From: Eledone cirrhosa
Taxonomy: Eukaryota
NCBI GenBank assembly: GCA_964016885.1
Contig: OZ024752.1
Location: 18,166,001-18,230,000, forward strand
Reading direction: 5' to 3'
Length of the DNA: 64,000 bases
The notes below the pieces were generated by a model that was not told the DNA's origin, did no database searches, and saw only the letters and a program-made list of their open reading frames with translations. Below are positions 4,690 to 60,778 of the stretch, in pieces (position 1 is the first letter of the stretch; every line of letters begins with the position of its first letter). The position numbers and the translations under genes are program-made.

Positions 4690-4800
4690 TGCTTATAGCA
4701 CCTAGGTTGCCCAAGCAGTCACCCATCTAAGTACTAACTAGGCTTGATGTTGCTTAACTTCAGTGATCGGACAAGTATGTGTTTTCAGCATGATATGGTC
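4690..4800 (-). pseudogene. 5S rRNA pseudogene (or 5S-derived SINE head)
   Basis: Reverse complement reads GACCATATCATGCTGAAAACAC..GTCCGATCACTGAAGTTAAGCAAC..GTTAGTACTTAGATGGGTGACTGCTTGGG..GTGCTATAAGCATTTT. This matches the animal 5S rRNA consensus with many C>T/G>A changes, a short 5' truncation and a T-run end. Confidence 0.88.
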
Positions 4801-6825
4801 CTCTGATAGTAATTCCTAACATAGACACAAGAACAATATTTGGGGGGGGGGGGGTCGATTACATCAACCCTAGGACTTGACAAGAACTTTATTTTGTCAA
4901 CCCCAGAAGGATGAACGAGGATGAAAGACAAATCAACTTAAGCAGAACTTAACGAGCAATAATTAAATTTTTGACTAACGATTCTGCCATTCCACTGCCC
5001 TGACCTTATTTGAACTTTCTAATAATGTATGAATTATTGTTTTATGTCTGTTTTTCCATGCTTGCACGAGGTTGGGCGAAACACAGAGCCTTTCCCAGTT
5101 TAATGGGCGTTAAGTAAGAGAGAGTACAAACTTCCCTCATGGATGGAACACCAGCCCACCACAAATGCTAACCCCCAGCTGCCACCGGTACTAATTTTCA
5201 GCTGAGTAAACTGGAGCAGCAAGAATGCCTTGGTCAAGAATGAACTGTGTCACTCGGTCTGAGAATCAAACCCACGATCTTTAAATTGTCAGACCAACAG
5301 CTTACCTACTTAGACATGCACTTTTGCATTTTCTACTAATACTGAGATAAATTATTTGATTTAAATGAACTTAAATAATACAATTTCAAATTTGAAACAG
5401 AAATTATTTAAAGTACTATATCTCCCTCTCTTTCTTTTTCCCCTAGACTCCAATTTAAAGTGTTTAGTTATTTCCATTTCAGTTAATTATGTTAGTCAGT
5501 CAATATTTTATTGAAATATAAAAATTTCTGAAATGAAAAATTATTCAGCTATGTTGAAAACTATGTGTAAATAAACCAGAAAAAATAAATTTTATTTTCA
5601 GCTTCAAAATTCTTTGGCTACCCTATTTCAAATTTTAGTTATATTTGCAAGTTTGTTCCCTTTAACTCTAAATGCAGAAGCCCATCAACTCAGGATACGA
5701 TATCAGAATCCTGGCTTTTCACTTACCTTTAATATCTGAAAGAGAAAGCGTAAATCCCCAATATGGAAGCATTAACATATATTCAGATTCATCTTTTTTT
5801 TTTCTGCTAATAAGAAGACAGAATAAGGTAGTTTTAGAGTGTGTTGCTGATATATGAACGCAAACATACACACACTCTTGTCTAAAACATCTATCACAAC
5901 CCAAGCCATACATTCAACATAACATGGAAATGAATTTTATTTCTCCAAGTAAAATTTTACCTGCACAAAACAGAATTTAGCAGGGAAGATAGTATAAATG
6001 AAGCCGCTTACATATCAATTATCTAAGACCAAAGAAATACCTGTATAGAGAGGCAAGCATCACTGGTGTCGAGGAAGCATTGAGGCACTGTGGTCTCATG
6101 TAACACATTGGTAGTCATAGCAATGCTCTCAACATTGGCGACCGAACAATTCAAACATGGTGCTGACAAAGATTGATAGAACTGCATAAATAGAAATCTG
6201 TCTGTATCAGAAAAGAAACTGTTCAGACTATAGTCATGTGCTTATAATAAAACCACTGGAATGATATGGTGTCTGTGCGGGAAAATAAAGTATTAAGGCC
6301 CCATTCACAACATTAAACCCAGAATATACCAGTTAGGATTTTCAATATTGTTAGATGTAATGCTTAAAAAATTTGTATTAGGTTAGGGGAAAAAAAAAAA
6401 AAAAAAAAAAAAAAAAGCAGTAATCTAGGTCTTACCCAAGTATAAAATTAAATTTTAATGTAAGGTTTTGTAATATTTTTTTTTGTTGCTTAGTTATTGT
6501 GATGAAGTGATTTATGAGTAAAAAAAAAAAAAACATTCATTTGGGGCATCAATGATATTAAAATTAAATGTCAATACTATGTAGAATAATTAAATAATTT
6601 GAGAATGATAGATTAAAAATGAATTAAGAGACTTATTGTAGCTAATTTCTGAAAAATCCAACTGCCACCCTGAATCTAAATCAATGCTAAATAATAGAAT
6701 TATTGTAATTCTAACAGTTTTCAAATCAAATAAAATTGATCTTAGTATTTTCTGGGATTATTTTTCTTTAAACTAGAGAAAGTTTCTATTCCAGAAAATG
6801 AAAAAGGATAAACTGTAACAATAAA

Positions 6826-19878: not shown

Positions 19879-20202
19879 CTGAAAGTAAAGCAAATAGTTT
19901 GTAATTCATACTCCTTAGGCTACTAATCCATTTGGGATCATCCTTGATCCTACCTGAGTTACCAACACATCAGAAACTTCTTATATTTTTCTAATCATAT
20001 CAAAACCAAAATATCAATGTCAATCTCATTACTACATTACTGATAATTGGAGAAGAGGGGGTGAAAGCTCTCCTATCCCAATGTTATCTCCAGAGATTCT
20101 GATATTGAAATCGCGGATTTGGCAACGACAGACCCATGTGGAGATCAATTGTTGAGTTGATTTCGGCTGAGGCTGTCGGATGATGATGATATATACATAC
20201 AC

Positions 20203-20945
20203 ATCATCATCAACGTTTAACGTCCGTGTTCCACGCTTGCATGGGTTTGGACGGGGGTTTTCCCACTTAAGGCAAGAGTGATTGTCTTGCTCGCATAGGA
20301 CTGTCTGGCGGGTTTTCTACAGCTGGATGCCCTTCCTAACACCAACCACATTTACAGTGTGGGGCTGGGAGGTTTTTACCGTGTTGCCTACATGGCCACA
20401 TTACAGCGTGGACTGTCTGGCGGGTTTTCTACAGCTGGATGCCCTTCCTAACACCAACCACATTTACAGTGTGGGGCTGGGAGGTTTTTACCGTGTTGCC
20501 TACACGGCCACATTACAGCGTGGACTGTCTGGCGGGTTTTCTACAGCTGGATGCCCTTCCTAACACCAACCACATTTACAGTGTGGGGCTGGGAAGTTTT
20601 TACCGTGTTGCCTACACGGCCACATTACAGCGTGGAGTGTCTGGCGGGTTTTCTACAGCTGGATGCCCTTCCTAACACCAACCACATTTACAGTGTGGGA
20701 CTGGGAGGTTTTTACCGTGTTGCCTACATGACCACATTACAGCGTGGACTGTGTGTTTTTTTGTCGTGACACCTACACGATCTCATTTGTTTCGGCCTGG
20801 ATGTTGTGGCACCAACATAACTTTACATTGAAAGGGGCGGTGTGGATGGGGTGGGGGTGGTGGGACGGGGGTGTATTTTGTTAGAGATGCCTACTGACTG
20901 TAGTAGGTTTTACTTTGTATTTAGGTAAGGAGGGTCTTATCACAA
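20203..20945 (-). mobile_element. 3' end of the same RTE family with about 4 tandem 112-bp units
   Basis: Near-identical to 61136-61640; 112-bp period is visible in the repeated ORFs at 20439 and 20551. Confidence 0.85.
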
Positions 20946-21390
20946 TCATCGTTTAGTGTCTCACTCGTACGGAAGTGTCTCTGGCAGGTTTTATTTTTAC
21001 GGCTGGATGCCCTTCCTAACAACAACCACATTTACAGTGTGGACTGGGAGCCTTTTCACCGTGTCTCCTACACGACCACCTTAGTGTGGACTGTTGTGTC
21101 ATCGACAGTGGATGGAATGGAAATGGGAGGACGGGGTAGGGTGTGTGGGGTTGAGGGTGGGGTGTATATTGGGTTAAGAGGTGCCTATTGACTGTAGGTT
21201 TGTATGCAAGGGAAGGTAGGTCTTCTGTACAACTGCATGGCGCCAAAGATAACATTGGGATGGGAGAGCTTGCACTCCGTTAGTGGCTGCTTGTGGTTTC
21301 CAAAGCACTAATGGGGACACAGCCCCATAGGTCGCATGATGGCAGTGGCCAGCAAACCTTACTCTCCTTTTACGTACATAGATAGATATA

Positions 21391-21697
21391 CAGTGTACCC
21401 CCAGTTATTTGTGGAATTTTCCTTAGAAACTAACTAATTGTTCGTGGAAACCACCGTATATTCGCAGAATCATAAATGTCTCACACGATTTTTTAATGGC
21501 TTTTTCGTGGCAATATATATTTTTTCACGCTTTTTAACACTAAATTATTAATAACAATATACTGTATTTGCCGGCCTATAGTTTACATTGTTTTGACGAT
21601 TATAGGCATTTTTATGCACCACGTCCAATATTCAAGGTTTTTCACTCTTCGTGGGTGCTCTAAGAACATAAGCCCCGCGAATACTGGGGGATAACTG
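21391..21697. mobile_element. Tc1/mariner (pogo/Tigger-like) MITE
   Basis: TA|CAGTGTACCCCCAGTTATTTGTGG ... CCGCGAATACTGGGGGATAACTG|TA. Confidence 0.72.
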
Positions 21698-21751
21698 TAT
21701 ATATATATTTAGATCCAGGGGCAAACACAATAAATATGGTAGTCAAAACAT

Positions 21752-21921
21752 TAGTAGAGTGAAGACAACAAAATGTAATATAGAAATGTCTTCTACAGGA
21801 CTAGAACTGATTCATTCCCATGAAATCATCAGGAATGCTGGGGGACAGAGTAAGTCTTCCTGTCTTCCATCATTCCTGTAGAAGACATTTCTATATTACG
21901 TTTTGTTGTCTTCACTACTAA
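21752..21921. repeat. Inverted repeat with about 50-bp arms near TA-rich tracts
   Basis: AGTGAAGACAACAAAATGTAATATAGAAATGTCTTCTACAGGA and its near-exact reverse complement about 70 nt downstream. Confidence 0.85.
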
Positions 21922-22538
21922 TTTTATATATCTGCTATATCTAGCAGTATATATACACGTCTTTGTCCTGTGCACAAATATTCACTTGTCTGCCTGATCT
22001 ACACACACATGAAAATCTACACTATGTGAGAACGGCAGTGGACGGTACTTCCATCCACTAATAGGTGAATATTTAATTATAGTTCAAACTGAGATCGTAC
22101 AGACATGTGACAAGATCCTCAGGGCTTGCCAAGACTCCTGCAGGCAACAGTACAAGGAGGGAAGAAGAGAAACAGACAGAAAAAGAGATGAGAGGACAAC
22201 ATCCCAGATTGGACAGACATGAAGCTAGGTGTAATGATGGGAAGGGCGGAGAGGCAGGAGGAATGGAAGGAGCTGGTTGCCAGGTCATGTGTGGCACCCC
22301 AACGGTCCACCAGACTACAGGACAGATGAAGATGATATGATGAAATGGCCAATATTTTCTTACCAGATGAAACTGGTAATGGCAAGATTAACAGGAGAGC
22401 AGGATCATTTTAGACTGCTCTGCTAGAAAATTCCCATAACCAACTTTGTAAAAGTGATTCAATATGTAGAATTCTCTGGTATTTTTAGCTATCATCTGTT
22501 GAGATTTTCAGAACACCTGTGACAAATAACTTTCTGTT

Positions 22539-22578
<40 letters not shown>

Positions 22579-22581
<3 letters not shown>

Positions 22582-24812
22582 GGAAAGCCCTTCAAGATGT
22601 GTATGATGAAAAAGAAGACGATTTAGAGACGTATGACATAGATAATAACTGGAATTTCTTACGTGACAACTTACTGCAGGCTACTGATGAAACTTGTGGC
22701 TGGAGCAGAGCTCCAACCAGACAGAGAATGACCTGGTGGTGGAACAGCACAGTAGATAAGGCCATTAGAGACAAAAGACTAGCATGGAAGGCTTGGAAAA
22801 AGGGTGGGAGTAGAGAAGGATATACAGCCGCTAAGAGAGAAGCTAGACGTCAGGTGTACTTAGCACACAGGGAGGCTGAGAGTAGGAGGTTTGCCAATGT
22901 TCCGGACGGGAAGATCAGAGACGTGCGGCGTTCCACATTGCAAGGCAGTGTGTCAGTGCAAATCAGGATGTTGTTGGAGATATGTGTGTCTGGAATGATG
23001 CTGATGTACTTGGTGTCACGAATGATCAGAAAAAGGAGGCCTGGAAATGTCATTATGAGAGACTGATGAATGTGGGGAATGAATTGTAGAGAGAGAAATT
23101 ACCCTGAGTAGATCCGACAGAGGGACCAGCTATTGAGATTGATGAATATAGGGTCCAAGAGGCGATTAAGGAAATGAAAAATGGTAAGGCTGCTGGACCG
23201 TCGGGGATAGTTGCTGAGATGCTGAAAGCATCAGGGGACGTAGGCACTAAACTGGTTGCATGCATCATCAATCAGGCTATATATGGTGGTGTCATACCCA
23301 AAGACCGGTGCAGCAGTATTCTCATAAATTGCTACAAAGGGAAAGGGGATGCTCTGGAGAGGAGCAATTATAGGGGCATAAAAGTGATGGATCAGGTCAT
23401 TCTAATTAGAGAAAGGGTCAAACTAGATGAGATGCAGTTTGGTTTTGTGCCTGGGAAGAGTACAACAGATGCCCTCTTCTTGGTGAGACAATTACAAGAG
23501 AGGTTCTTAGAGAAAAATAAGCCACTATACTTAGCCTTTGTTGACCTAGAGAAGGCCTTTGATAGGGTACCCCGATCTGTCATCTGGTGGTCCCTAAGGA
23601 AACTAGGTGTTGAGGAATGGCTTGTGAGGACAGTGCAAACTTTGTACAGAGTTACTGTCAGTAAAGTCAGGGTAGAAATGGAGTTTAGTGAGGAATTCCA
23701 GATACAAGTAGGAGTACCTCAGGGTTCGGTTCTCAGCCCGCTCTTGTTCATTATAGTCCTCCAAGCCATAACAGAGGAGTTTAAGACTGGCTACCCATGG
23801 GAACTTCTCTATGCTGACGATCTGGTTCTTATAGCAGAATCAGTAGAGGAGCTAGAGAATAAATTCTGGCTATGGAAACAGCAGTTGGAAGCAAGAGGAC
23901 TGAGAGTGAACCTAGCTAAGACAAAAGTGCTGATGAGTAGAAAAGGGGACAAAACTCTGATTCCGTCAGGGAAATGGCCATGTTCGATATGCAGAAAAGG
24001 AACTGGCATAAATTCTATAAAATGCACACAATGCAGATCCTGGGTACACAAGAGATGTAGCGGGATAGCAGGCAAACTAACAGGTAGGGAGAAATACGTA
24101 TGCAGTAGATGTACAGGGAAATTAAACAGTAGAAGTCACATTGATAGACACATTTTTCAAATGCAGGCGGGTGCTATAGAAGTGGTGGATAGCTTCTGGT
24201 ACCTAGGAGATCAGATTACCATTGGGGGGGGGGGGGGGGTTCCGAGGCCATAGTATCTAGAATAAAGACGGGTTGGAAGAAGTTTAGGGAGCTGCTTCCT
24301 CTGCTGACGGAGAAGGGTTTCTCCCTGCGTACGATAGGTCGGTTATATGATGCCTGTGTGAGGAGCGCGATGCTGCATGGTAGTGAGACATGGGCAGCAA
24401 CTGCAGAGGATATGCGACGGAGAGAAATGATGCAAGCATGCTCCGTTGGATGTGCAATGTCAATGTGAGTGAACAACCAAATATGGATGTGTTGAGAGAG
24501 AAACTGTGTCCGAGAGGGATAGAATGTAGTGTGCGAGAGAGGAGACTGCGGTGGCATGGACATGTGATATGCATGGAGGATGACCGATGGGTGAAGAAGT
24601 GCCAGGAAATGCCAGTTGAAGGAAGACGTGGTAGAAGTAGACCACGAAAAAACATGGGCGGAGGTGGTGAGAACAGACCTCAGATCGCTGAAGCTCATGG
24701 TGGGGATGATGAAGGACCGTGACAAGTGGAGAGGTGCTGTGTTGAATAAGACCCGTCCCACCCTTGCAAGCAGGGAAAAGCGGACGTAAAATGATGATGA
24801 TGATGATGATGA
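22579..24812 (+). mobile_element. 5'-truncated RTE-clade LINE with disrupted RT ORF, in LUC7L3 intron 4
   Basis: RT motifs QFGF, DLEKAFD, QGSVLSPLLF, YADD. LRWHGHV and GRRGRSRP C-terminus. (TGA)n tail. Frameshifts and stops; (TA)n on both sides. Confidence 0.93.
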
Positions 24813-24937
24813 TATATATATATAGTGTATTTTGCAATACACTGTATGCTTAATTAAAAGCATTTTGAAGACCTTACGCTATTGTTTTAAAGTAGTGACT
24901 ATGTCACTCACTTCTTTTTTCAGCAAACAAAGGGAGA

Positions 24938-24985
24938 TAAGCTGACAGATCTCTGTTTCGTACTGTTGGTACTCCTCAGAGCTTA
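24938..24985 (-). ncRNA. Minimal type I hammerhead ribozyme (Penelope-like), intact core
   Basis: UAAGCU-CUGAGGA-GUAC caaca GUAC-GAAA-CAG agau CUG-UC|-AGCUUA. Stems I, II and III all pair. Predicted cleavage between 24944 and 24943. Confidence 0.88.
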
Positions 24986-25137
24986 GCACTCCCTTTGCCT
25001 GCTGAAAACTATGAATGTTGGATTCTCATAGAATTCCAGTAATAATCAGGAACTGATTATACAGAGCTGTTGCCTGATTATTACTGGAATTCTATGAGAA
25101 TCCAACATTCATAATTTTCAGCAGGCAAAGAGAGTGC

Positions 25138-25185
25138 TAAGCTCTGAGAAGTACCAACAGTACGAAACAGAGATCTGTCAGCTTA
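25138..25185 (+). ncRNA. Mirror copy of the hammerhead with a G8>A core change (probably inactive)
   Basis: Identical to 24938-24985 except CTGAGAA replaces CTGAGGA. Confidence 0.75.
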
Positions 25186-26430
25186 TCTCCCTTTGTTTGC
25201 TGAAAAAAGAAGTGAGTGACATAGTCACTACTTTAAAACAATAGCATAAGGTCTTCAAAATGCTTTTAATTATGATATATATATATATATAGGTGAAGAG
25301 GTACCAGGAAATGCCAGTGGATGGAATATAGGTGGTCCGAGAAAGACCTAAGCAGAGGTGGTGAGAGCTGACCTCAAATCACTGAGACTTATAGAGGAGA
25401 TGAAGAAACGCATCAAGTGGAGAGATGGTGTGTTGAAAAGGACCCATCCAACCCATAAAAGCATAGAAAAACTGACATAAAAAACGATGATATATATATA
25501 TATATATATATATATCAATTTCTAATAGGAGCAACAACTTGGATAGCAACAGTGAAAACAACAAATTGATTACAGAAACAGAATGAACTAAAACTTTAAA
25601 AAATATTTTTCTTCAAAAATTTTCAGAAAAACAAAAAAAAAAATAACCAGATCTTAATTGCAATTTAATGTCCATTTTCCATGCTAGCATGGGTTAGATT
25701 AGTTGTCCTATTGTGAGACAACTCAGATCAAGTGACTGTGTCTTGCTCATACAGAACTAACAGAGATATACAGATATATTTCTAAGTGCACAAAATGGGA
25801 CATGAAAATTTGTAAAGTAAATAGTGTATATTGTTATAGATTTGACATTCATAAAGAAGGAAAAACTATGATGCAAGTCAACATGGCCTGGTATATGAAG
25901 TGGTATAGAAACTATCCTTTCAATCTATATATAAGTTTGAGTGGCTTCTGAACAAATATTGCAATGCAATTGATAACAGGATATTTTTCACTCAATGTAA
26001 CTGTTAAACAAAACCTATCAGAGATAAGCCTTCTGGATTTGATCTAACTCCATATAATAAAGAAGATCAATAGCTGCAAGAGAGGCTGCCAAGAATGCCA
26101 ATACCAGAAAAAGAAAAACACTCAATGGCCAATCACTGAAACAACTTTCTAATGTACATCCATAAACAAAATATTTTTGAATTTTGTATACACAATTTCA
26201 TTTTCTGAAAATACTATATTTTTAAACTGATCTTATCTTCAAATTGCTTTTTTCCTGTAAGGAATTATATTAAGGTGAATGACAAATCCATTAAATTATA
26301 TTAACCCTTTCATGACTGCATTTCTAATAAAATACATTATACAGTTTTTATCCAAAGGTTTGGAGATCGATTTTTTAAGTTAAGTAGCCATGATGATATA
26401 ATAATACAAGACATGAAGATACATTATTAA

Positions 26431-26662
26431 CCCTTTCATGACTGCATTTCTAATGACACACACTCTCTTTTAATCAATTAATGAAGTATTTCAAGGGATT
26501 TACTAAAATTATTAATTATTTAATTACTAAAATAGTAACTTAATCTAAGGTTCTTATATAAAATTATGTTGAAAGATTTTAATTTAAATTGGGAACTTTT
26601 AAAATAGGTGGTTTTGTTTCATAGAACCAGAGTCAGTTTTAGCTTGGTTGGTAACTAAAGGG
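26431..26662. mobile_element. Third TTAA MITE variant (CCCTTTCATGAC...GTAACTAAAGGG); copies at 32689-32917 and about 59819-60047 (inverted)
   Basis: Three alignable copies with TTAA-CCCTTT ends. Confidence 0.78.
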
Positions 26663-28354
26663 TTAAGGTGAATCCCAAATCCACTTAGTGCTATTCATCT
26701 TTATGTATCTTTTATATACACTCAAGTTCAAATGAAAATCCAGTAATGTACACAATGTTGTTTGATGTACTATATATGCTACAATTCTGAAGTGTATCCC
26801 AACTGAATATTGGACCAACAACTCTTTATATGGTGATATTTAAACAAAATTTAAATAAATTTAGATGTCACTGAATTTACCTGCAATTACAGTAGTTTTG
26901 AGACAAAAATTCCGTATGTTCTTATGTAAGAACCTTTTGTTATGTTGTCTTCCAAACATCACCTTAATATATCAATAAACAAAAAAGTTACAGTTGTTTT
27001 ATGAAGCCAGTCTAAGTTTACAATTATTTTAGGTAGGAATATAGTACTGAATGGGTTCAAAATGCTTTCTTTAAAAATTATTTTTCCTTTTAGATAAAAA
27101 CATTTTTTTCAGTGCAAGCATTATAATTGTTTCTACTTTTGGCACAAGGCCAGCAATTACCCCAGTGCATTACAGGTGCTTTATTTTATCGAGCCTGTAA
27201 GGATGAAAAGCAAAGTTAACCTCGGCGGGATTTGAACCCAGAACATAAAGGGCAATAACTGTATACTGCAAAGCACGTGTCTGACAGTCTACCGCTACTG
27301 CCAATCCACCTCCCTTATAAGGAATTGTTATAGAACATTGAGATGTGCAGCCACAGCAAGTGTTTAATGGGCAGTCAGTTTTGGACAGGTTAGTAACTAA
27401 AGGGTTAAACAGAGAAAAATAGGTGTCAACATTGTTTTATATCTATTTTCTAGGCTGACTTGTGTTTGAGTAGTTGTCATGGTCCAATATTAGATAGGTC
27501 AAAGAACCCTGTCTTGTTCATACATTTCATTTGTGTCTATAATCCATAGATTCTTACATAATGGAAAATGGAGAAAACCAGAGAGAAATTTGCTGGTGTA
27601 GATAGGAGCAAGGGGAGAGGGAGTGCCCAAAAGAAGGAATTAGGTAACCCCTCCAAATCCTTGATTATTTTCAAAATAATTTGAAAACCATAAGTGTGTT
27701 TCATGAAAAAGGTTAATACTACTATACTAAGATCTATATGGAAATTTGAGCACTTTTTGTCCATCACACAATGCGTGTGTGAATGTATGTCTGTGAGTGT
27801 GTATTTTTGTAAGTGTGTCTGTGTGTTTATATTTATATACTCATACATATAAATGTATGCATATGCACATACACACATACGCATCAGCATGTTAAAAGAA
27901 ATTCTAGTTTATCATATTTCTCAAAGGCAAAAATTGTTACTGAAATATCTAAAGAAAATTTAATATCATTTAAAACAACTTAACTCTTAACATTTGGTAA
28001 TGATTTAGCAGAAAAACAGGTTTGTTAAATCAAATGGTTATAAAATCTTTACTAGCAGACAGATAGTTATGAAAATTTGCAGTAAACTAAACATTTTAAT
28101 TTTTAATGTAATGCTTTTCTGTACTTTTCGAGAATGTCTTATAGGAAAATCTTGCTGATGTGGTTTCATGTGGGACATGAAGTAAAAGTTAAATCTATCT
28201 TTAATATTTGCACAAATAAATGGTTCAAGTATCATTTCTAGAGAAACTTTTTGCTAAATCACATATTGCTTTTATTTATTTATTTATTTTTTTTGCAAGA
28301 GGCATATTTAGAAAAATAATTTACACTGTATTAAAAGGTGTAAAAAATACTTAC

Positions 28355-31215: not shown

Positions 31216-31516
31216 ATATCAATAATATTAATAAATGGAAACTATCTTTATAAAACCATATTTATTTTATTATATATATTTCAAGGGTACCAAAATTTTT
31301 GGTACGCTCTCATCAGATAAATTATAAAAGTTGTTTTACAGATAGTGACATATTCAAAACAAGAACTTATCATTTTGAATATGTCACTAAATGTAAAACA
31401 ACTTTTATATTTTATTTGATGAGAGCGTACCAAAAATGTTGGTACCCTTGAAATATATATAATAAAATAAATATGGTTTTATAAAGATAGTTTCCATTTA
31501 TTAATATTATTGATAT
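31216..31516. repeat. Long palindrome: 144-bp arms, 13-nt loop
   Basis: 31216-31359 versus 31373-31516, about 5 mismatches, followed by (TA)n. Confidence 0.95.
31265..31321 (-). ncRNA. Second minimal type I hammerhead ribozyme motif (different family)
   Basis: UUUAU-CUGAUGA-GAGcGUACCA..UGGUACcCUU-GAAA-uauaua-UA|-AUAAA with a palindromic minimal stem III. The mirror copy at about 31409-31468 (+) has TTGATGA. Confidence 0.7.
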
Positions 31517-45431: not shown

Positions 45432-47999
45432 CCCTTTAGCATTCACATTGAATTGTCAAATGTCATGTTCATCTATTCGCATTATTTTCACTTAATTATA
45501 CTCAAGAGGGTTATCAATTTTATTTGTTTCTAATTACTTTAATTTTCTATGTGCAGACTTGAAATTTTGTCAGTAGATGTTTAAAGAACTATAATTTACA
45601 ATTATATATTTTTACCTGATTTTTTTTTGTTAAATTTGACTTTTATGGGCAGGTAAAATTAATTAACAGGTGTAAAAGTAATAACTTTATAGATAAACAC
45701 AAAAATTTAAACTTTATCTGCCTTACCTGTTAGATTTGTTGCAAAAAAATCCAATAATGATCTAGATGCTGATTTCCATCAATTCTAGCAGTTTTCCGAA
45801 CAGGTGAATTAATTAAAAATGCAGGTGTAATCAGTACAATGTTTTAGTCTTTCTCTACATTCCAGGCAAATATTTTCATTGAAAAAAATGTATAAAACCT
45901 TTTCACCAGTCAAAATAATATTGGCAATGTACTCTTACACAATGTACGGTGTAAAATTACGTAACAGAATGTTCCCAATATATAAGTTCATTAACAGGTG
46001 TGATGCAGGTGTGTCACAGGTGAATGCAGGTGTTTTTGTATATGTGTGCTAATATATTTTTAAAATAGTGTTTTCAATATTGTTAGACAATATTTCGATC
46101 GTGATACTGCCCAAAGCACCCTTTACATAAGGGCACTTTGCAAAAGGAACACATAAATAGGATTTGGATTGCGTAACCTTTAACAGCTTTTCTCTTTTGC
46201 AAAGAGCACAATCGGCAAACCTTCCTCCTACCATCAATTCTCTCCACTTTATGAAAATCAATATTTTCTTTGTGGACCACTGCTAATTTTGATTTTTTCC
46301 CAGCTTTGTGTTTGCGAGAAGTATATCCCCCACGTAGCTGGGATGCAATGTCCACGCGAAATTTCATGTGGCAGTAGTCCTTTGGTGGTGGCGGATCCTT
46401 GTGGCTTTTAGTAAATACAATATAAGAATTTACAATGGTTAAATTCACTAAAAACCACAAGATGTATCTCCACCATTTCTTTCCAGGGCGTCCAACTGGG
46501 TAATACGCGCAATATTGGTGGGATTTGTCAACCCCACCCATATATTTATTGTAGGAGAGGTTAACTAAAGGTCTACCCTCAGCCCCAACACCTGGTTGTT
46601 GGTTAGAACTCAGGAACAAAATTTGCCGTTTGTCTTTGAACACTGTGGCTAACATGTTCTCTTTTTGCATTTGGAGAATGTCCCCTCTGTTTTTTAGTTT
46701 CGCAACTTTTATTTCTTGGGGTAGCCCTTTCCGATTGCTCATTATTGTGCCGCAGGTGTACGTATTTACAAGGGCAAGATCCTCTGCTAAAAGCACCGAA
46801 GAAAAAAAACGGTCATAATAAATGTGTCTGTGTTGAAAGTGGAAGGGTTGAGTCAGCGACCACACAACATCGTAACCCAACCCGTGTTTTCTCTCTCCGT
46901 TAAGTTTTTTTCCTGTGTAAACATCAAAGTTTACACAGTATCCCGTGTCCGATTCACACAGTTCCCACACTTTGATGCCCCATTTGGTGGGTTTAGCTGG
47001 CATATACTGTCTGAAATGAACCCTACCCTTATACCCAATCATAGCTTCATCAACACTAAGATTTTTTCCAGGTAAATACATACTTTTAAATTTTTCCGTC
47101 AACATTTCAATTAATGGTCGTACTTTGTACAGTGGGTCGTAATTCGATACATTTCTACCAGGGGCATTTGTAGTATCAACCAGATGCAAATACTGGTTTA
47201 ATTTTATAAATCTCGTTTTGGCCATAATACTAGATATATAAGGGTCACCAAACCTTATATCAGTACTCCAATAATTCCACAGTCGTGGAAATTGTTTAAT
47301 ACCAAACATAATGTTTATGGTAAAAAACGCTTTCATTTCGGCAGAATCTGTCGGACGCCATAAAAGATCGGGATTTGCTCGATTAGAAATCTGTTGTTGT
47401 GCATAGCGATTTGTTTCCTCTGCCACAACTTCGAAGAAAGTTTGTGGTAGAAATAAAAAAAAAATAATCCAGAGCTTTAGCATCGGGTGGTAATGTGTGT
47501 TGTGGTCCAGAATTTTCATTAAAATCCGAAACATGTATCGGTGTTGTTTCTTTCAACCACATTGGTGTTTTTTCAATGGTGTCAGATATCTCTTCGCTTT
47601 CACTTTCAAAGTGACTATCATCATCATCAGATATATCAGAAATAAATATATCTGATTCATTTGAAGATAAATCACTGATATTATCTTCTGTTTCTTTGTT
47701 ATCTTGAATGTCGTAGGATGTGAAACCTTCAAAATCGTTGTCGCTGCTTTCGGAAGCCATGTTACAATTTCAAAGTTAAAAACACGTGTTATCACAAGGT
47801 CTTTAACTATACTAAGAGTTAATTTTCGCGCGTAAGGGCTTTATCTCGCTGTAATCTCGAATTGACGAGATTTTGATGATGTCAATGTTTATTTTTAGAA
47901 GGATATCTACGAGTGGTCTGAAATGTCGGTTTTTGTCGGTTTGAATAAATGAAAGGGGACATAATTTTGTCGGTTTTTGTCACTTTGAACGCTAAAGGG
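45432..47999 (-). mobile_element. Near-full-length piggyBac-like DNA transposon (copy A, 2568 bp) in eRF3 intron 3
   Basis: TTAA on both sides; TIRs CCCTTTAGCATTCA / TGAACGCTAAAGGG; transposase ORF inside. Confidence 0.95.
46083..47760 (-). pseudogene. piggyBac transposase (about 558 aa if repaired), split by one frameshift in an A10 run at 47455-47464
   Basis: Acidic N-terminus. DDD triad in SVDEAM, YYDRFF and GGVDKSHQ; KPTKWGIK; C-terminal Cys-rich domain CRLC..CSFC..LC..CF..YH. Confidence 0.9.
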
Positions 48000-55460: not shown

Positions 55461-56918
55461 CCCTTTAGCATTCAAAGCGACAAAAACCGACAAGATTATG
55501 TCCCCTTTCATTTATTCAAACCGACAAAAACCGACATTTAATACCACACGGAGATTTCCTTCTAAAAATAAACATTGACATCATCGAAATCTCGTCAATT
55601 CGAGATTACTGCGAGATAAAGCCCTTACGCGCGAAAATTAACTCTTAGTATAGTTAAAGAACTTGCGATAACACGTGTTTTTAACGTTGAAAGTGTAACA
55701 TGGCTTCCGAAAGTAGCAACAACGAATTTGAAGGTTTTACGTCCGACGACATTCGAGATCAAAAAGAAACAGAAGATAATATCAGTGATTTATCTTCAAA
55801 CGAATCAGATATATTTATTTCTGATATATCTGATAATGATGATAGTTACTTTGAAAGTAAAAGAGAAGATTTGACGACTGACACCATTGAAAAAACAGCA
55901 ACGTGGTTGAAAGAAACATCGATAAATGTTTCGGATTTTACTGAAAATATTGGACCACAACACACATTACCACCCGATGCTAAAGCACTGGATTATTTTT
56001 TTATTTTTACCACAATCTTTCTTCGAAGTTGTGGCAAATCGCTATGCACAACAACAAATTTCTAATATCGGAAAACCCGATCTGTTATGGCATCCGACAG
56101 ATTCTGCCGAAATGAAAGCGTTTTTTACCATAAATATTATGTTTGGTATTAAACAATTTCCACGACTGTGGAATTATTGGAGTACTGATATAAGGTTTGG
56201 TGACCCTTATATATCTAGTATTATGGCAAAAACGAGATTCATTAAATTAAACCAGATGGTTGATACTTCAAATGCCCCTGGTAGAAATGAATCAAATTAC
56301 GACCCACTGTACAAAGTACGACCATTAATTGAAATATTGTCAGAAAAATTTAAAAGTGTATAAACTTATATATTGGGAACTTTCTGTTACGTAATTTTAC
56401 ACCGTACATTTACAGAGTACATTGCCAATATTATTTTGACTGGTGAAAAGGTTTTATACATTTTTTTCAATGAAAATATTTGCCTGGAATGTAGAGAAAG
56501 ACTAAAACCGTGTACTGATTACACCTGCATTTTTAATTAATTCACCTGTTCAGAAAACTGCTAGAATTGATGGAAATCAGCATCTAGGTCATTATTGGAT
56601 TTTTTTTGCAACAAATCTAACAGATAAGGCAGATAAAGTTTTAATTTTTGTGTTTATCCATAAAGTTATTACTTTTACACCTGTTAATTAATTTCACCTG
56701 CCCATAAAAGTCAAATTTAACAAAAAAACATCAGGTAAAAATATATAATTGTAAATTATAGTTATTTAAACATCTACTGACAAAATTTCAAGTCTGCACA
56801 TAGAAAATTAAAGTAATTACAAACAAATAAAATTGATAACCCTCTTGAGTATAATTAAGTGAAAATAATGCGAATAGATGAACATGACATTTGACAATTC
56901 AATGTGAATGCTAAAGGG
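55461..56918 (+). mobile_element. Internally deleted piggyBac (copy C, 1458 bp), close relative of copy A in opposite orientation, nested in an older MITE
   Basis: TTAA flanks and the same TIRs. ORFs 55700-56363 nearly match the copy A N-terminus. The catalytic region is deleted at about 56360. Confidence 0.94.
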
Positions 56919-57331: not shown

Positions 57332-57430
57332 GTAAGTCTTTTTTTTTTTTAATCTATCTATCTATCTCTTTTTTTCTTTCTCTCACATAGTTTTATATTA
57401 ATGTTTCATATTTCTATTTTCATCTCCCAG

Positions 57431-57585
57431 GTGATTTCTGCCAGAAAGGGTGAATTTGAAACGGGATTTGAAAGAGGTGGACAAACAAGAGAACATGCTA
57501 TGTTAGCTAAGACAGCTGGTGTGAAACATTTGGTGGTTCTCATAAACAAAATGGATGACCCAACAGTAGAGTGGTCAGAAAAACG
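57431..57585 (+). CDS. GSPT1: eRF3 exon 7 (VISARKGEFETGFERGGQTREH...NKMD)
   Basis: G4 NKMD motif; acceptor ctcccag, donor CG|gtacag. Confidence 0.96.
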
Positions 57586-58045
57586 GTACAGTAGCTTGCA
57601 TATGTTTGTAGAAAAACAATTGTTGTTGTCATGAATGGAAGTTTCTATTTCATAGCTATCGGTGAAAATCGGATTGATAATTGAAGATGACTGGTTATGC
57701 TTTATCCATGGCAAATTTCTACAACCAGATGTCCTCCCTATCATTATCCCATACTTGCAGTATGGTAAAGATTTACCAACTTAATGATAATCTGGGTGTC
57801 AAGATATATAGGACTTCCATACAGTTACTATCAACCAGATGCACCCACAAATTGGGTCTGGAGGTATATAAGATATTTGCCACAAAATGTCTAGAGGAGA
57901 AACTTTGCAGTGCTATTTGTTTGATATGAACCTGAAATATAAGGTTATATTTTTTATAAAAGCGATGTTGTGAATATGTACAAATTCACCTGTTTTATAC
58001 CAACTTGAGATATTCCTCTGATATTATGTTTATATTTTATTTTAA

Positions 58046-58243
58046 CCCTTTAGCATTTAAACTGGCCATATCTGCCCAGAATTCTCTCACCTCTCTGTTC
58101 AAACCGGCTGTAACCAACCACTCATACTGATGTTATGGTATTGTTCTCAAAATATGCCAAAATCTCATAGATTTGATATGTGAGATAAAGTCTTTACCGT
58201 GAAAATACAATAGTAAATATAGAGTAATGTAAATGCTAAAGGG
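58046..58243. mobile_element. piggyBac-derived MITE of about 200 bp; other copies at about 12808-12982, 16045-16253, 17975-18183, 29310-29510, 33865-34073, 53250-53378
   Basis: TTAA flanks, TIR CCCTTTAGCATTTA; interior resembles the piggyBac 5' subterminal region. Confidence 0.88.
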
Positions 58244-58856
58244 TTAAATCATGATCACAGTTCCATTATATTGATCTTATTAGAGTTAGTTCTCAGGCAA
58301 GAATATCTTCATGAGTTTATGTAATAATTTGTGCTTTAAATACCAGCTTAATGTTCAAATTGTCATCGTCATGGTGCAACTACATCGGTTGGATGGTTTA
58401 TTGTTCTGAGCCTTAATGTCAGATAACCACATATTGCTCATATGTTTCAGTTTGGCAAGGTTTCTACAGCTAGTTGTATTTTATTGTAGTCCCAGCACTA
58501 CCACTTTACAGAGTGAGCTAGGAACATTTTATCCTGTACTATCACTTTACAAATAATATTGTAGTTTTACTAAATCATCTAACATTTAGTGTATCAGTGT
58601 TTAAGATGGTTAAAATATATATATTTGACTTTGGTTAATCTCATTGTTTTGGATGTTAATGATCAGATAATTTTACTATCCTTAGCAATTTGTCTTAACC
58701 CTTTTTATACCAAATGCTTAAAACCACCATTGGTTCTATGATGATTTAAAGTCTTTATATTTCAAAACTTTCCTCCGTAATTTTATGTAAGAACCTTCAT
58801 TAATTTATGTTCCGAAGATTATAAGTAAGTTAGTTATATAAATCAAATTCTTGATC

Positions 58857-59265
58857 TTCTTTGCCCACTTATTCCTGAGAGCGTCATGGGGCAGAATCCT
58901 CAAACACTCCTTCCAGCGGGTCCTGTCAGAAGCAACCGTCTCCAACTAATTCGGCTGGATCCCCCAAACGAGACCAGCTAAGCTCATGGATGTTATCCAA
59001 CCATCTTGCTTGGGGTCTACCCTTGGGTCTCCTGCCTGTTGGTTTTGCCTGTAAAATCTGTCCAGCAATTCTTTCCTGAGACATTCTAACCACATGCCTA
59101 TTGTATCAGAGCTGTGATCCCTCAATTCGGAGTAGTAGTGGCTCTATCGAGTAACTTTAATCAAAAAACCCTTCAAGAAGGAACCCCATTTTGGCTGCTT
59201 GTATTCGCGACCGTATACTTTCAGTCATTACTCAAGATTCATGACCATCGGTAAGGGTTGGCATG
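58857..59265 (-). mobile_element. LINE 3' fragment of a second RTE-like family, inserted in a TTAA MITE; related fragment at about 4340-4530 (+)
   Basis: Translates to ...GRPQARWLDNIHEL..; GAA-type tail; inverted match to about 4340-4530. Confidence 0.65.
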
Positions 59266-60325
59266 AATACCAAATTGAAGATTATTTTAAATTCTGAAGT
59301 AGTGTATTTCATTAGTAATATAGTAACAAAGATTAATGATATATTTATTTGTTTTGCTAGTACAACAGTTTCATAACTTTTGAAATAGATCCATTTGTAT
59401 GTGTACAAGTAGTTATGATATACTTGAATCATGCTTATAAGTGTTTTAGAAATATTGGAAATCTATACTATAATAAGAGCGCTGGTTGTCCATGCTATCT
59501 ATATATAGAGAGGGAAATACTGCTCTACCTCCCTCTCTCTCTAACTAAAGTGTAACATACAAATAAATGAAAAGGATACAGAATTTTTGGTGGGGGTTGT
59601 TTGTGTGTGTATTTTTGTGGTTCGGTATGTACAATGCAACACAGACTTTAAAAAAAGACTTTCACTATAATGACAGTTGGTTGTTGTTGAGAAAGAAATA
59701 CAGTGAGTGTGTGTGTGAAATATAGGTAGAGAGAGTTGTAAATACACAGGAATCATCATAAAGTCTACTGGTGGATTTTAAAATGAGGATTTTTGTTTAT
59801 TAGCATTTTAACAATTAATACTTTAGTTAGCAACCCAGCCAAAACCAGTTCTGGTTCTTTGAAACTAAATCCCTCATTTTAAAGGTTTCCTATTCAAATT
59901 AAAATCATCCAACATAATTTTATATAAGAACCTCACATTACGTTAATATCTTAGTAATGAAATAATTAATAATTTTAGTAAATCCCTCAAAATCTTTCAT
60001 TAATTAATTGAAATAGTGATTTCATTAGAAATACAATCATGAAAGGGTTAAGAATCTTCAACTAGGCTTTATTTAATTCATAGAAGCTTAATGTAATTGA
60101 GAAAGTTACAACACAATAGGTAATTGTGTGAACATACACTCATGAATTTATTTTGATTGTATATCTTTTTCTCTGTAGAGATATTTGTGGTGGATTTGTA
60201 AATAGTAAATAACACGAAAAATATGAGTCCTATTGTATGATTCTTGTATAATAACTGGGCCTCCTTGGCCTTTATTATTTCGCTAATGAACCAAAATAAC
60301 TTCATTCTGTGGTTTTTATTTTTAG

Positions 60326-60566
60326 GTACAATGAATGTCATGATAAGCTCATACCTTATCTAAGAAAATGTGGCTTTAATCCCAAAACAGATATTTATTT
60401 TATGCCAGTGTCAGGATTAACTGGTGCTTTCCTTAAAGAAGTAGTACCAGAAGAATTGTGTCCATGGTTCCGAGGGCCAGCTTTAATCCAATATTTAGAT
60501 GACATGCCCTCACTAAACAGAGCTTCAGATGGCCCTGTAAGAGTGCCAGTTGTTGATAGATACAAG
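60326..60566 (+). CDS. GSPT1: eRF3 exon 8 (YNECHDKL...MPVSGLTG...VVDRYK)
   Basis: G5 SG motif; acceptor tttttag, donor AAG|gtaaat. Confidence 0.94.
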
Positions 60567-60778
60567 GTAAATTCAGTTATGTTTTGTTCTCTAATTCCTA
60601 ATTATTATGTTAGAAAATATCTAAGATAATTCTCCTTGTTTATGTTGTACCTGGCTTATGGCTGAAACTACTTTTGTGTGAAATTTATTTCCACCAAATT
60701 TTGTGAACTACAGCTTTTGTATTCAAAGATTATATAAATCAATGGAGAGGACCCCATTACAAACGTCTGCTATATATA

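What the first reader, a model, noticed from the sequence alone, without database searches (positions are those of the whole stretch)
24851..25272. Intronic 200-bp palindrome carrying an intact hammerhead ribozyme in the LUC7L3 sense orientation and a mutated mirror copy
Seen: a complete minimal type I hammerhead (CUGAGGA/GAAA/GUC, three paired stems, palindromic AGAUCU in stem III) on the minus strand, which is the LUC7L3 pre-mRNA strand. The plus-strand mirror has G8>A. Established: such minimal hammerheads mark Penelope-like retroelement termini and often cleave as dimers. Inference: the pre-mRNA makes the antisense arm first, which would sequester the ribozyme in a long duplex. That would be a self-silencing cassette that might be unmasked by editing or unwinding.
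Basis: partly seen in the sequence, partly recalled or inferred. Interest (0 to 1): 0.8.

Follow-up and report, generated by a model that had tools for sequence, protein, structure and literature searches.

The report
Retrozyme copy inserted as intronic palindrome
This palindrome is one truncated copy of a family of over a thousand short non-coding repeats that carry a hammerhead (self-cutting RNA) motif and usually lie back-to-back, likely because a Penelope-type retrotransposon enzyme copies their RNA from both ends of a DNA cut; it is probably not a gene-control switch, but a very young sister family offers a direct test of the proposed rolling-circle copying of such RNAs.

Summary
Observation confirmed: 200-bp arms (24851-25050/25073-25272, 4 mismatches), an intact type I hammerhead core on the minus (pre-mRNA) strand of an 8.5-kb intron of a LUC7-family gene, and G8A in the mirror. 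The hammerhead is extended rather than minimal, and covaries across subfamilies. It belongs to a ~318-nt tandem-unit family with at least 1,291 intact cores genome-wide, a non-LTR retrozyme with Penelope-type footprints: (TA)n targets, head-to-head arms and a tail on one arm. Head-to-head is the family's usual form, and G8A occurs in 33 copies (2.5%), so neither is special. This copy is under one unit long and cannot make a circle; its ribozyme is predicted to be buried in the duplex (82 kcal/mol). The better lead is a very young 311-nt sister family. It forms dispersed head-to-head multimers (up to ~21 units per arm); in 20 of 20 complete arrays the two arms end at different sites about 35 nt apart; and 0 of 25 arrays are mosaic at three sites that vary between arrays. 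This is the footprint expected of rolling-circle reverse transcription primed from both target strands. No RNA data and no autonomous partner were found. The scan has reported this kind of element before on other DNA.

The parts
24825..25074 (-). Sense arm on the pre-mRNA strand: about 250 nt of the ~318-nt retrozyme unit; its outer end is the family's 'short' end class, running into (TA)n
24917..25008 (-). Extended type I hammerhead: lower rod 25008-24989 with 24936-24917, internal loop, stem I 24985-24980 with 24943-24938, core 24979-24973 (G8 = 24974), stem II 24972-24960, stem III 24956-24945, C17 24944, unpaired U1.7 24937
25051..25074 (.). Spacer (copied only in the left arm) and the 2-nt microhomology (25073-25074) at which the two arms join head to head
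25073..25272 (+). Mirror arm, 200 nt; core 25144-25179 with G8>A at 25149; outer end is non-standard (about 75 nt short of the family's 'long' end)
24810..24824 (+). Left copy of a target-duplication-like TG(AT)n stretch at the tail of a LINE
   Evidence: family D3; inside microsatellite, so boundaries are uncertain
25273..25291 (+). Right copy of the target-duplication-like stretch
22542..24809 (+). Host context: decayed LINE with reverse transcriptase (RVT_1, E 4e-27) and (ATG)n tail; a second 3' fragment of it (77% alike) follows at about 25289-25490
19879..28354 (-). Host intron of the LUC7-family gene

Best explanation
The palindrome is a truncated, likely inert copy of a high-copy non-autonomous hammerhead element (non-LTR retrozyme, ~318-nt unit) that was likely inserted by a Penelope-like reverse transcriptase/endonuclease. 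Shown: family, copy number, tandem unit, covarying hammerhead, head-to-head layout, two end classes and (TA)n targets. Inferred mechanism: the endonuclease cuts both strands of a (TA)n tract; each 3' end primes reverse transcription of the same unit-length (probably circular) RNA, one at each of two start sites about 25-35 nt apart; the two cDNAs grow inward and join by microhomology, which leaves a head-to-head palindrome. After insertion the arms drifted apart (2%); G8A is one of four such changes. In the host pre-mRNA the antisense arm is made first and is predicted to zip up with the sense arm, so the intact ribozyme would rarely fold. This probably explains why the insertion is tolerated and is a by-product, not a selected switch. 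With one intact core and less than one unit per arm, this copy cannot release a monomer or circle.
For: Family: 2,588 first-look candidates, 58 matches from 40 scored, at 95-100% identity for full-length arms; 1,291 exact matches to the core pattern, control 0. Unit 313-326 nt in tandem with a sharp 3' end into (AT)n. A natural 318-nt unit folds as a circle at -80.0 versus -50.8+/-4.7 kcal/mol for 100 shuffles. Covariation on 27 hand-picked of 87 copies: 92% of cells paired, 11 of 34 pairs with changes on both sides, including 3 of 4 in stem II; slid controls 44-49%. Layout: 65 of 90 loci head-to-head, 24 single, 1 tail-to-tail (loci partly duplicated); 16 versus 0 among the first 100 listed cores. 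Of 66 distinct loci, 24 have both arms ending in a defined class: 23 long+short, 1 long+long, 0 short+short (p 3e-6). Both arms share rare variants 14 times versus ~1.2 expected in 25 loci, and 5 versus 0.3 in 8 loci; the window copy shares two variants seen in 0 of 55 and 0 of 68 other arms. G8A 33 versus 1,291. Literature: inverted 5' copy, 30-40-bp tail and (TA)n bias of PLEs (PMC8557442, passages); PLE protein cleaves and extends both strands, has two RT start sites that define the tail, and G8C abolishes cleavage (PMC11167929, parts 1-2 of 4); retrozyme definition and circRNA-to-tandem-cDNA hypothesis (PMC7229834, sections 14, 17 and passages); retrozymes as PLE derivatives (bioRxiv 10.64898/2026.07.22.740005, parts 1-3 of 5). 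Autonomous RT+GIY-YIG ORFs exist in the genome.
Against: No autonomous partner sharing sequence with the unit was found in 50 GIY-YIG loci, out of 10,596 candidates. The window copy's right end is not one of the two standard ends, so this copy needs a later deletion or aberrant priming. Rfam gives no hammerhead hit at gathering score; Hammerhead_1 scores only 14 bits, E 0.7, against a cut-off of 34. The catalytic fold is only about 7% of the predicted ensemble of the isolated motif. Variants shared between arms could also come from gene conversion. In the bioRxiv study 8 of 9 predicted retrozyme dimers did not cleave in vitro.
Confidence: 0.82

Rival explanations
1. Co-opted regulatory cassette: the duplex keeps the ribozyme off until editing or a helicase opens it, and cleavage then lowers or alters LUC7-family pre-mRNA.
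For: The intact core is on the pre-mRNA strand and is predicted to be buried. All four arm mismatches read as G-U wobbles on that strand. A second palindrome in the next intron upstream also has its intact core on the pre-mRNA strand.
Against: The layout is the family default and G8A is at background rate. The arms have drifted 2%, at the young end of the spread seen in other copies. Four transitions of one polarity has a chance of 1 in 8, and the second palindrome does not repeat that polarity. An 82 kcal/mol gap would need very extensive editing to close.
Confidence: 0.04
2. The unit is the solo pseudo-LTR of an autonomous Penelope-like element, and the palindrome is a severely 5'-truncated insertion of that element's linear RNA, with no circular intermediate.
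For: Same footprints (tail, inverted 5' copy, TA target); most copies of this family are only 1-2 units long.
Against: Upstream of a unit lies the same unit's 3' end, not an ORF. No PLE protein match next to 138 family loci. The autonomous copies inspected have a different terminal repeat with a short-stem hammerhead-like motif (read by eye).
Confidence: 0.1
3. The palindrome arose at the DNA level (fold-back of one cDNA or later inverted duplication), or is an assembly artefact.
For: The arms share private variants; a small hairpin sits at the junction (fold); no read set spans the locus.
Against: Fold-back of one cDNA does not explain why the two outer ends fall almost always in opposite end classes (23 of 24; 20 of 20 in the sister family), or why the two arms stop at unrelated inner positions. 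The arms differ at 4 sites, and the mutated arm is present in run X2.
Confidence: 0.04

Closest known systems
Metazoan non-LTR retrozymes (Cervera and de la Pena 2020, PMC7229834)
   Same: Canonical type I hammerhead in a short (here ~318 nt), low-GC (35%), protein-free tandem unit that folds strongly as a circle; thousands of copies.
   Different: Circular RNA and cleavage are not shown here. In that paper 'inverted' has 0 occurrences, whereas head-to-head layout and two end classes dominate here. This copy is under one unit.
Non-autonomous Penelope-like elements / pseudo-LTR derivatives (PMC8557442; bioRxiv 10.64898/2026.07.22.740005)
   Same: Inverted 5'-truncated copy, partial tandems, tail on one end, (TA)n targets; autonomous PLE ORFs in the same genome.
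   Different: No sequence link to an autonomous element was found (50 loci). The hammerhead is extended, not the minimal PLE type.
Poseidon element of Anolis (PAc), in vitro mechanism (PMC11167929)
   Same: Both target strands are cut and extended, and two RT start sites define the tail; this matches the long/short end pairing seen here.
   Different: That study saw no difference in start site between the strands and found hammerhead cleavage dispensable. Here each insertion uses one site per arm, and the sister family gives long homogeneous multimers.
Rfam Hammerhead_1 (RF00163)
   Same: Core, three helices and a similar A-rich loop II align to the model.
   Different: 14 bits, far below the gathering score of 34; stem III is longer than the model's.

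Membership tests
Type I hammerhead ribozyme | Conserved core with NUH triplet and three helices, stem I open | tested here: met
   compensatory changes in stems I and II
Type I hammerhead ribozyme | Rfam gathering score | tested here: not met
   Hammerhead_1 14 bits versus 34; none
Type I hammerhead ribozyme | Self-cleavage | not testable with these tools
   needs an in vitro assay
Canonical (extended) hammerhead | Loop 1-loop 2 tertiary contact: unpaired U seven bases after the cut, A-ending loop II, internal loop in stem I | tested here: inconclusive
   U at 24937 and loop II are invariant in 27 of 27 aligned copies, but loop II was fixed by the search pattern; contact described in PMC11875169 (passages); no 3D test
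Minimal PLE-type hammerhead | Very short stem III with an in-register palindromic loop that needs dimers; no extended stem I | tested here: not met
   Stem III has 4 bp plus a 4-nt loop, the palindrome is off register, and a ~20-bp rod lies below stem I. Detail of the definition partly recalled; PMC7229834 passages distinguish minimal from canonical
Non-LTR retrozyme | Tandem unit of 150-450 bp with one hammerhead per unit | tested here: met
   Family unit 313-326 nt, dimers and trimers present; the window copy itself is under one unit
Non-LTR retrozyme | No protein, GC under 50% | tested here: met
   111 of 318 G+C; no ORF of 90 aa or more centred on it; no PLE protein match
Non-LTR retrozyme | Target-site duplication longer than 4 bp | tested here: inconclusive
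   About 15-nt duplicate flanks, but inside microsatellite
Non-LTR retrozyme | Expressed as linear and circular monomer RNA | not testable with these tools
   no RNA holder listed
PLE-mobilised element | Inverted 5'-truncated copy next to the 5' end | tested here: met
PLE-mobilised element | 30-40-bp tail on one end only | tested here: met
   Family: 23 of 24; sister family: 20 of 20; not met by the window copy's right end
PLE-mobilised element | Shared terminal sequence with an autonomous PLE | tested here: inconclusive
   None in 50 GIY-YIG loci of 10,596 candidates; one locus (L062) holds a family palindrome about 700 bp past the endonuclease, read as an independent insertion
Autonomous PLE | RT plus GIY-YIG ORF | tested here: not met

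The most novel reading that the evidence does not exclude
This family and its very young 311-nt sister record the PLE/retrozyme insertion reaction directly. One unit-length circular hammerhead RNA is reverse-transcribed rolling-circle fashion by a Penelope-type enzyme from both 3' ends of a (TA)n break, each end using a different one of the two start sites. This would explain in one step the tandem arrays, the inverted 5' copy and the one-sided tail of Penelope-like elements, and would turn the published circRNA-to-tandem-cDNA hypothesis into a testable model with a currently active substrate.
Probability: 0.55. Interest if true: 0.68.

Novelty: new member of a known kind. Interest (0 to 1): 0.36.

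Why it matters
The locus itself matters little: it is one of over a thousand decaying copies, at most a long intronic double-stranded RNA that may be edited. The family matters more. How retrozymes get back into the genome has only been proposed (PMC7229834 discussion; the 2026 bioRxiv authors say they have limited evidence on the life cycle), and PMC8557442 calls the origin of PLE tandem/inverted structures undefined. The array statistics here give specific predictions: both strands primed, one start site each, a single unit-length template. They also name a near-identical, probably active 311-nt element with which to test them. The head-to-head layout would also mask intronic ribozymes in either gene orientation, which may explain how a genome tolerates thousands of them.

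Tried and rejected
Rfam at gathering score over the window (only 5S rRNA) and by E-value over 701 nt (no hammerhead); narrowed to 96 nt, a sub-threshold Hammerhead_1 hit. Search for the autonomous partner: blastn of both units against 50 GIY-YIG loci and tblastn of 3 PLE ORFs against 138 family loci found none. Expression: no RNA holder listed, which is no evidence either way. Reads: no record spans the palindrome; read ends in the RAD library near the sister family's long end may be restriction sites and were not used. My first idea that the window copy's 31-nt asymmetry is the standard PLE tail was rejected: its right end is non-standard. The idea that variants shared by both arms are A-to-I editing of the template: A>G is 4 of 19 shared versus 22 of 245 one-arm changes, Fisher p 0.10, not supported. 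The idea that all-G-U mismatches show selection for pairing: n = 4, and no such polarity across the 47 locus rows (partly duplicated) or in the second palindrome. LUC7 paralog naming: PDB and Atlas give only 'LUC7'. Literature searches for a prior description of the head-to-head rolling-circle footprint and of cephalopod hammerheads listed none, judged from titles and abstract starts; the library lacks most subscription papers, and supplements (including the life-cycle figure S9 of PMC7229834 and the closed bioRxiv files) were not seen.

Full report
Observation. The minus strand carries a type I hammerhead core at 24979-24944 with stems of 6, 4 and 4 bp and C17 at 24944; the plus-strand mirror (25144-25179) has G8>A at 25149. 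The descriptor gave 0 hits in 50 shuffled windows. LUC7-family exons on the minus strand and an in-phase exon at 19878-19801 place it in an intron of about 8.5 kb (~28354-19879). The paralog name LUC7L3 was not tested (say only LUC7). The genome is 3.0 Gb; a cephalopod is my inference, shared by earlier scan notes, not a tool result. The element sits in a (TA)n tract at the tail of a decayed LINE, between ~15-nt duplicate flanks that look like a target duplication but lie in microsatellite.

The ribozyme is extended, not minimal. Below stem I, an internal loop leads into a ~20-bp rod, with an unpaired U seven bases after the cut. PMC11875169 (passages read) describes that U as the partner of the last A of loop II in extended hammerheads. 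On 27 copies picked by hand from 87 to span subfamilies, 92% of cells pair; 11 of 34 pairs change on both sides, 3 of 4 in stem II and 6 of 20 in the rod; slid controls pair at 44-49%. Related sequences inflate these counts. The AGAUCU palindrome is one base off the axis of stem III, and a 4-bp stem with a 4-nt loop can close as a monomer. Rfam misses it at gathering score and gives Hammerhead_1 only 14 bits on a narrow stretch. The catalytic fold is within 0.5 kcal/mol of the minimum for the isolated motif (about 7% of the ensemble) but 82 kcal/mol above it in the full palindrome. The inter-arm duplex wins at every nascent length tested after the loop. Cleavage itself is untested.

It is one copy of a large family. 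The arm finds 2,588 candidates (40 scored, 58 matches). An intact-core pattern has 1,291 exact matches, control 0. The unit is about 318 nt, occurs in partial tandems and ends sharply into (AT)n. A natural unit folds as a circle far below shuffles (-80.0 versus -50.8+/-4.7), and it is 35% G+C. This fits the metazoan non-LTR retrozymes of PMC7229834 (sections 14 and 17 and passages read), which bioRxiv 10.64898/2026.07.22.740005 (parts 1-3 of 5 read) derives from Penelope-like elements. The window copy holds about 250 and 200 nt of the unit, so it cannot release a monomer.

The palindrome and G8A are ordinary for the family. 65 of 90 loci are head-to-head, 24 single and 1 tail-to-tail (loci partly duplicated); among the first 100 listed cores there are 16 head-to-head close pairs, 1 tandem pair and 0 tail-to-tail. 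G8A cores number 33 against 1,291 intact, in line with the ~2.4% per-site decay of single arms. Against 69 other arms, three of the window's four mismatches are G>A in the right arm and one is A>G in the left.

How it most likely arose. PMC8557442 (passages) lists an inverted 5' copy, a 30-40-bp tail on one end and (TA)n bias as PLE features of unknown origin. PMC11167929 (parts 1-2 of 4) shows a PLE protein cutting and extending both target strands from two start sites that define the tail. In this family, of 66 distinct loci, 35 have both arms classed and 24 have both ends in a defined class: 23 long+short, 1 long+long, 0 short+short (p 3e-6). The two arms share rare variants far above chance (14 versus ~1.2 in 25 loci; 5 versus 0.3 in 8), and the window's arms share two variants seen in no other arm. 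I infer that both ends of the cut prime on the same template, one at each start site, and that the cDNAs join head to head by microhomology (2 nt here). Gene conversion between arms is an alternative for the shared variants, but not for the end pairing. The window copy departs from the rule: its left end is 'short', but its right end is non-standard. Autonomous RT+GIY-YIG ORFs are plentiful, but none of 50 loci shares sequence with the unit as a terminal repeat, and no PLE protein matches next to 138 family loci. The helper is unnamed.

The sister family sharpens the mechanism. L046 revealed a 311-nt unit, 215 of 324 columns identical to the 318-nt unit, with 1,148 exact cores in dispersed arrays at 99-100% identity. 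Of 18 arrays chosen from the best hits, 14 had both arms and both outer ends in view; all 14 had one end near unit position 301 (288-310) and the other near 25 (24-32). One more was two-armed with an end out of range, and 3 showed one orientation. All 8 arrays among the first 100 cores listed on C1 are head-to-head. Of 7 of these fetched afresh, 6 again had one end of each class and the seventh had one end masked. Arms reach 17 and 21 units. At three sites that differ between arrays, 0 of 25 arrays are mosaic, and variants private to one array fill every unit of both arms in L181 (11 units), L185 (15) and L192 (9). This is what rolling-circle reverse transcription of one unit-length circle predicts; PMC7229834 proposed that step without such data. 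It is not proof: only 25 arrays were examined, long transcripts of unseen homogeneous donors could give the same pattern, and no RNA data exist here. Searches listed no paper describing this footprint, within a library that lacks most subscription journals; supplements were not seen.

The Penelope link and the sequestration are supported in substance; 'minimal, dimer-type' is not; a selected self-silencing cassette is unlikely (about 4%). Points in its favour that I could not dismiss: the four mismatches all read G-U on the pre-mRNA strand, and a second palindrome at 31216-31516 also has its intact core on that strand. Both are small-number, after-the-fact observations. Earlier scan notes (read after my reading was fixed; not checked here) report five similar hammerhead retrozymes with Penelope-type footprints, two of them in this genome; a look-up for the multimer-array footprint returned nothing. 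Novelty: new member of a known kind. Interest 0.36, most of it owed to the family-level evidence on mechanism.

Noticed in passing
G000 arrays L171-L196 (for example C18:1189849-1197761, C1:183180459-183192164); first seen in L046:1684-3036: Very young 311-nt sister family (66% identical to the 318-nt unit, with a compensated stem II and an in-register palindromic short stem III). 1,148 exact cores genome-wide. Dispersed head-to-head multimer arrays up to 17+21 units. One outer end near unit position 301 and the other near 25 in 20 of 20 complete two-armed arrays. 0 of 25 arrays are mosaic at three sites that differ between arrays; private variants fill all units of both arms in L181, L185 and L192.
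   Followed up: yes
311-nt family, unit positions 119, 191, 203, 289: Four of five whole-array variants are A/G differences in RNA sense, and positions 119 and 289 occur in all four combinations. This hints at recurrent change or recombination, possibly A-to-I editing of the template. Not significant in the older family (p 0.10).
   Followed up: partly
window 31216-31516: Second, unrelated head-to-head palindrome (144-nt arms, 97%) in the next intron upstream of the same gene, with a hammerhead-like core intact on the minus strand (31316-31271) and C3>U in the mirror (31416); AT-rich palindromic stem III.
   Followed up: partly
window 21758-21916: Short element with 43-nt terminal inverted repeats (98%) and a 73-nt spacer, MITE-like.
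   Followed up: no
window 4690-4806 (-): Degenerate 5S rRNA copy, 53.5 bits.
   Followed up: no
window 46083-47840 and 55691-56363: Two piggyBac-like DDE_Tnp_1_7 transposase copies; the first has a 489-aa open frame.
   Followed up: no
L091-L098: Several families of Penelope-like ORFs (RT plus C-terminal GIY-YIG with an upstream Cys motif, Neptune/Nematis-like by the description in PMC8557442), up to 1,096 aa open; L094, L095 and L098 carry a short-stem hammerhead-like motif in the 3' repeat (by eye).
   Followed up: partly
G000:C2:57401314-57408040 (+): Second LUC7-family gene (paralog) in the genome.
   Followed up: no
window 57353-60629 (+): Exons resembling a translation GTPase of the eRF3/EF1A type (label recalled, Pfam gave no hit for the one exon tested).
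   Followed up: no
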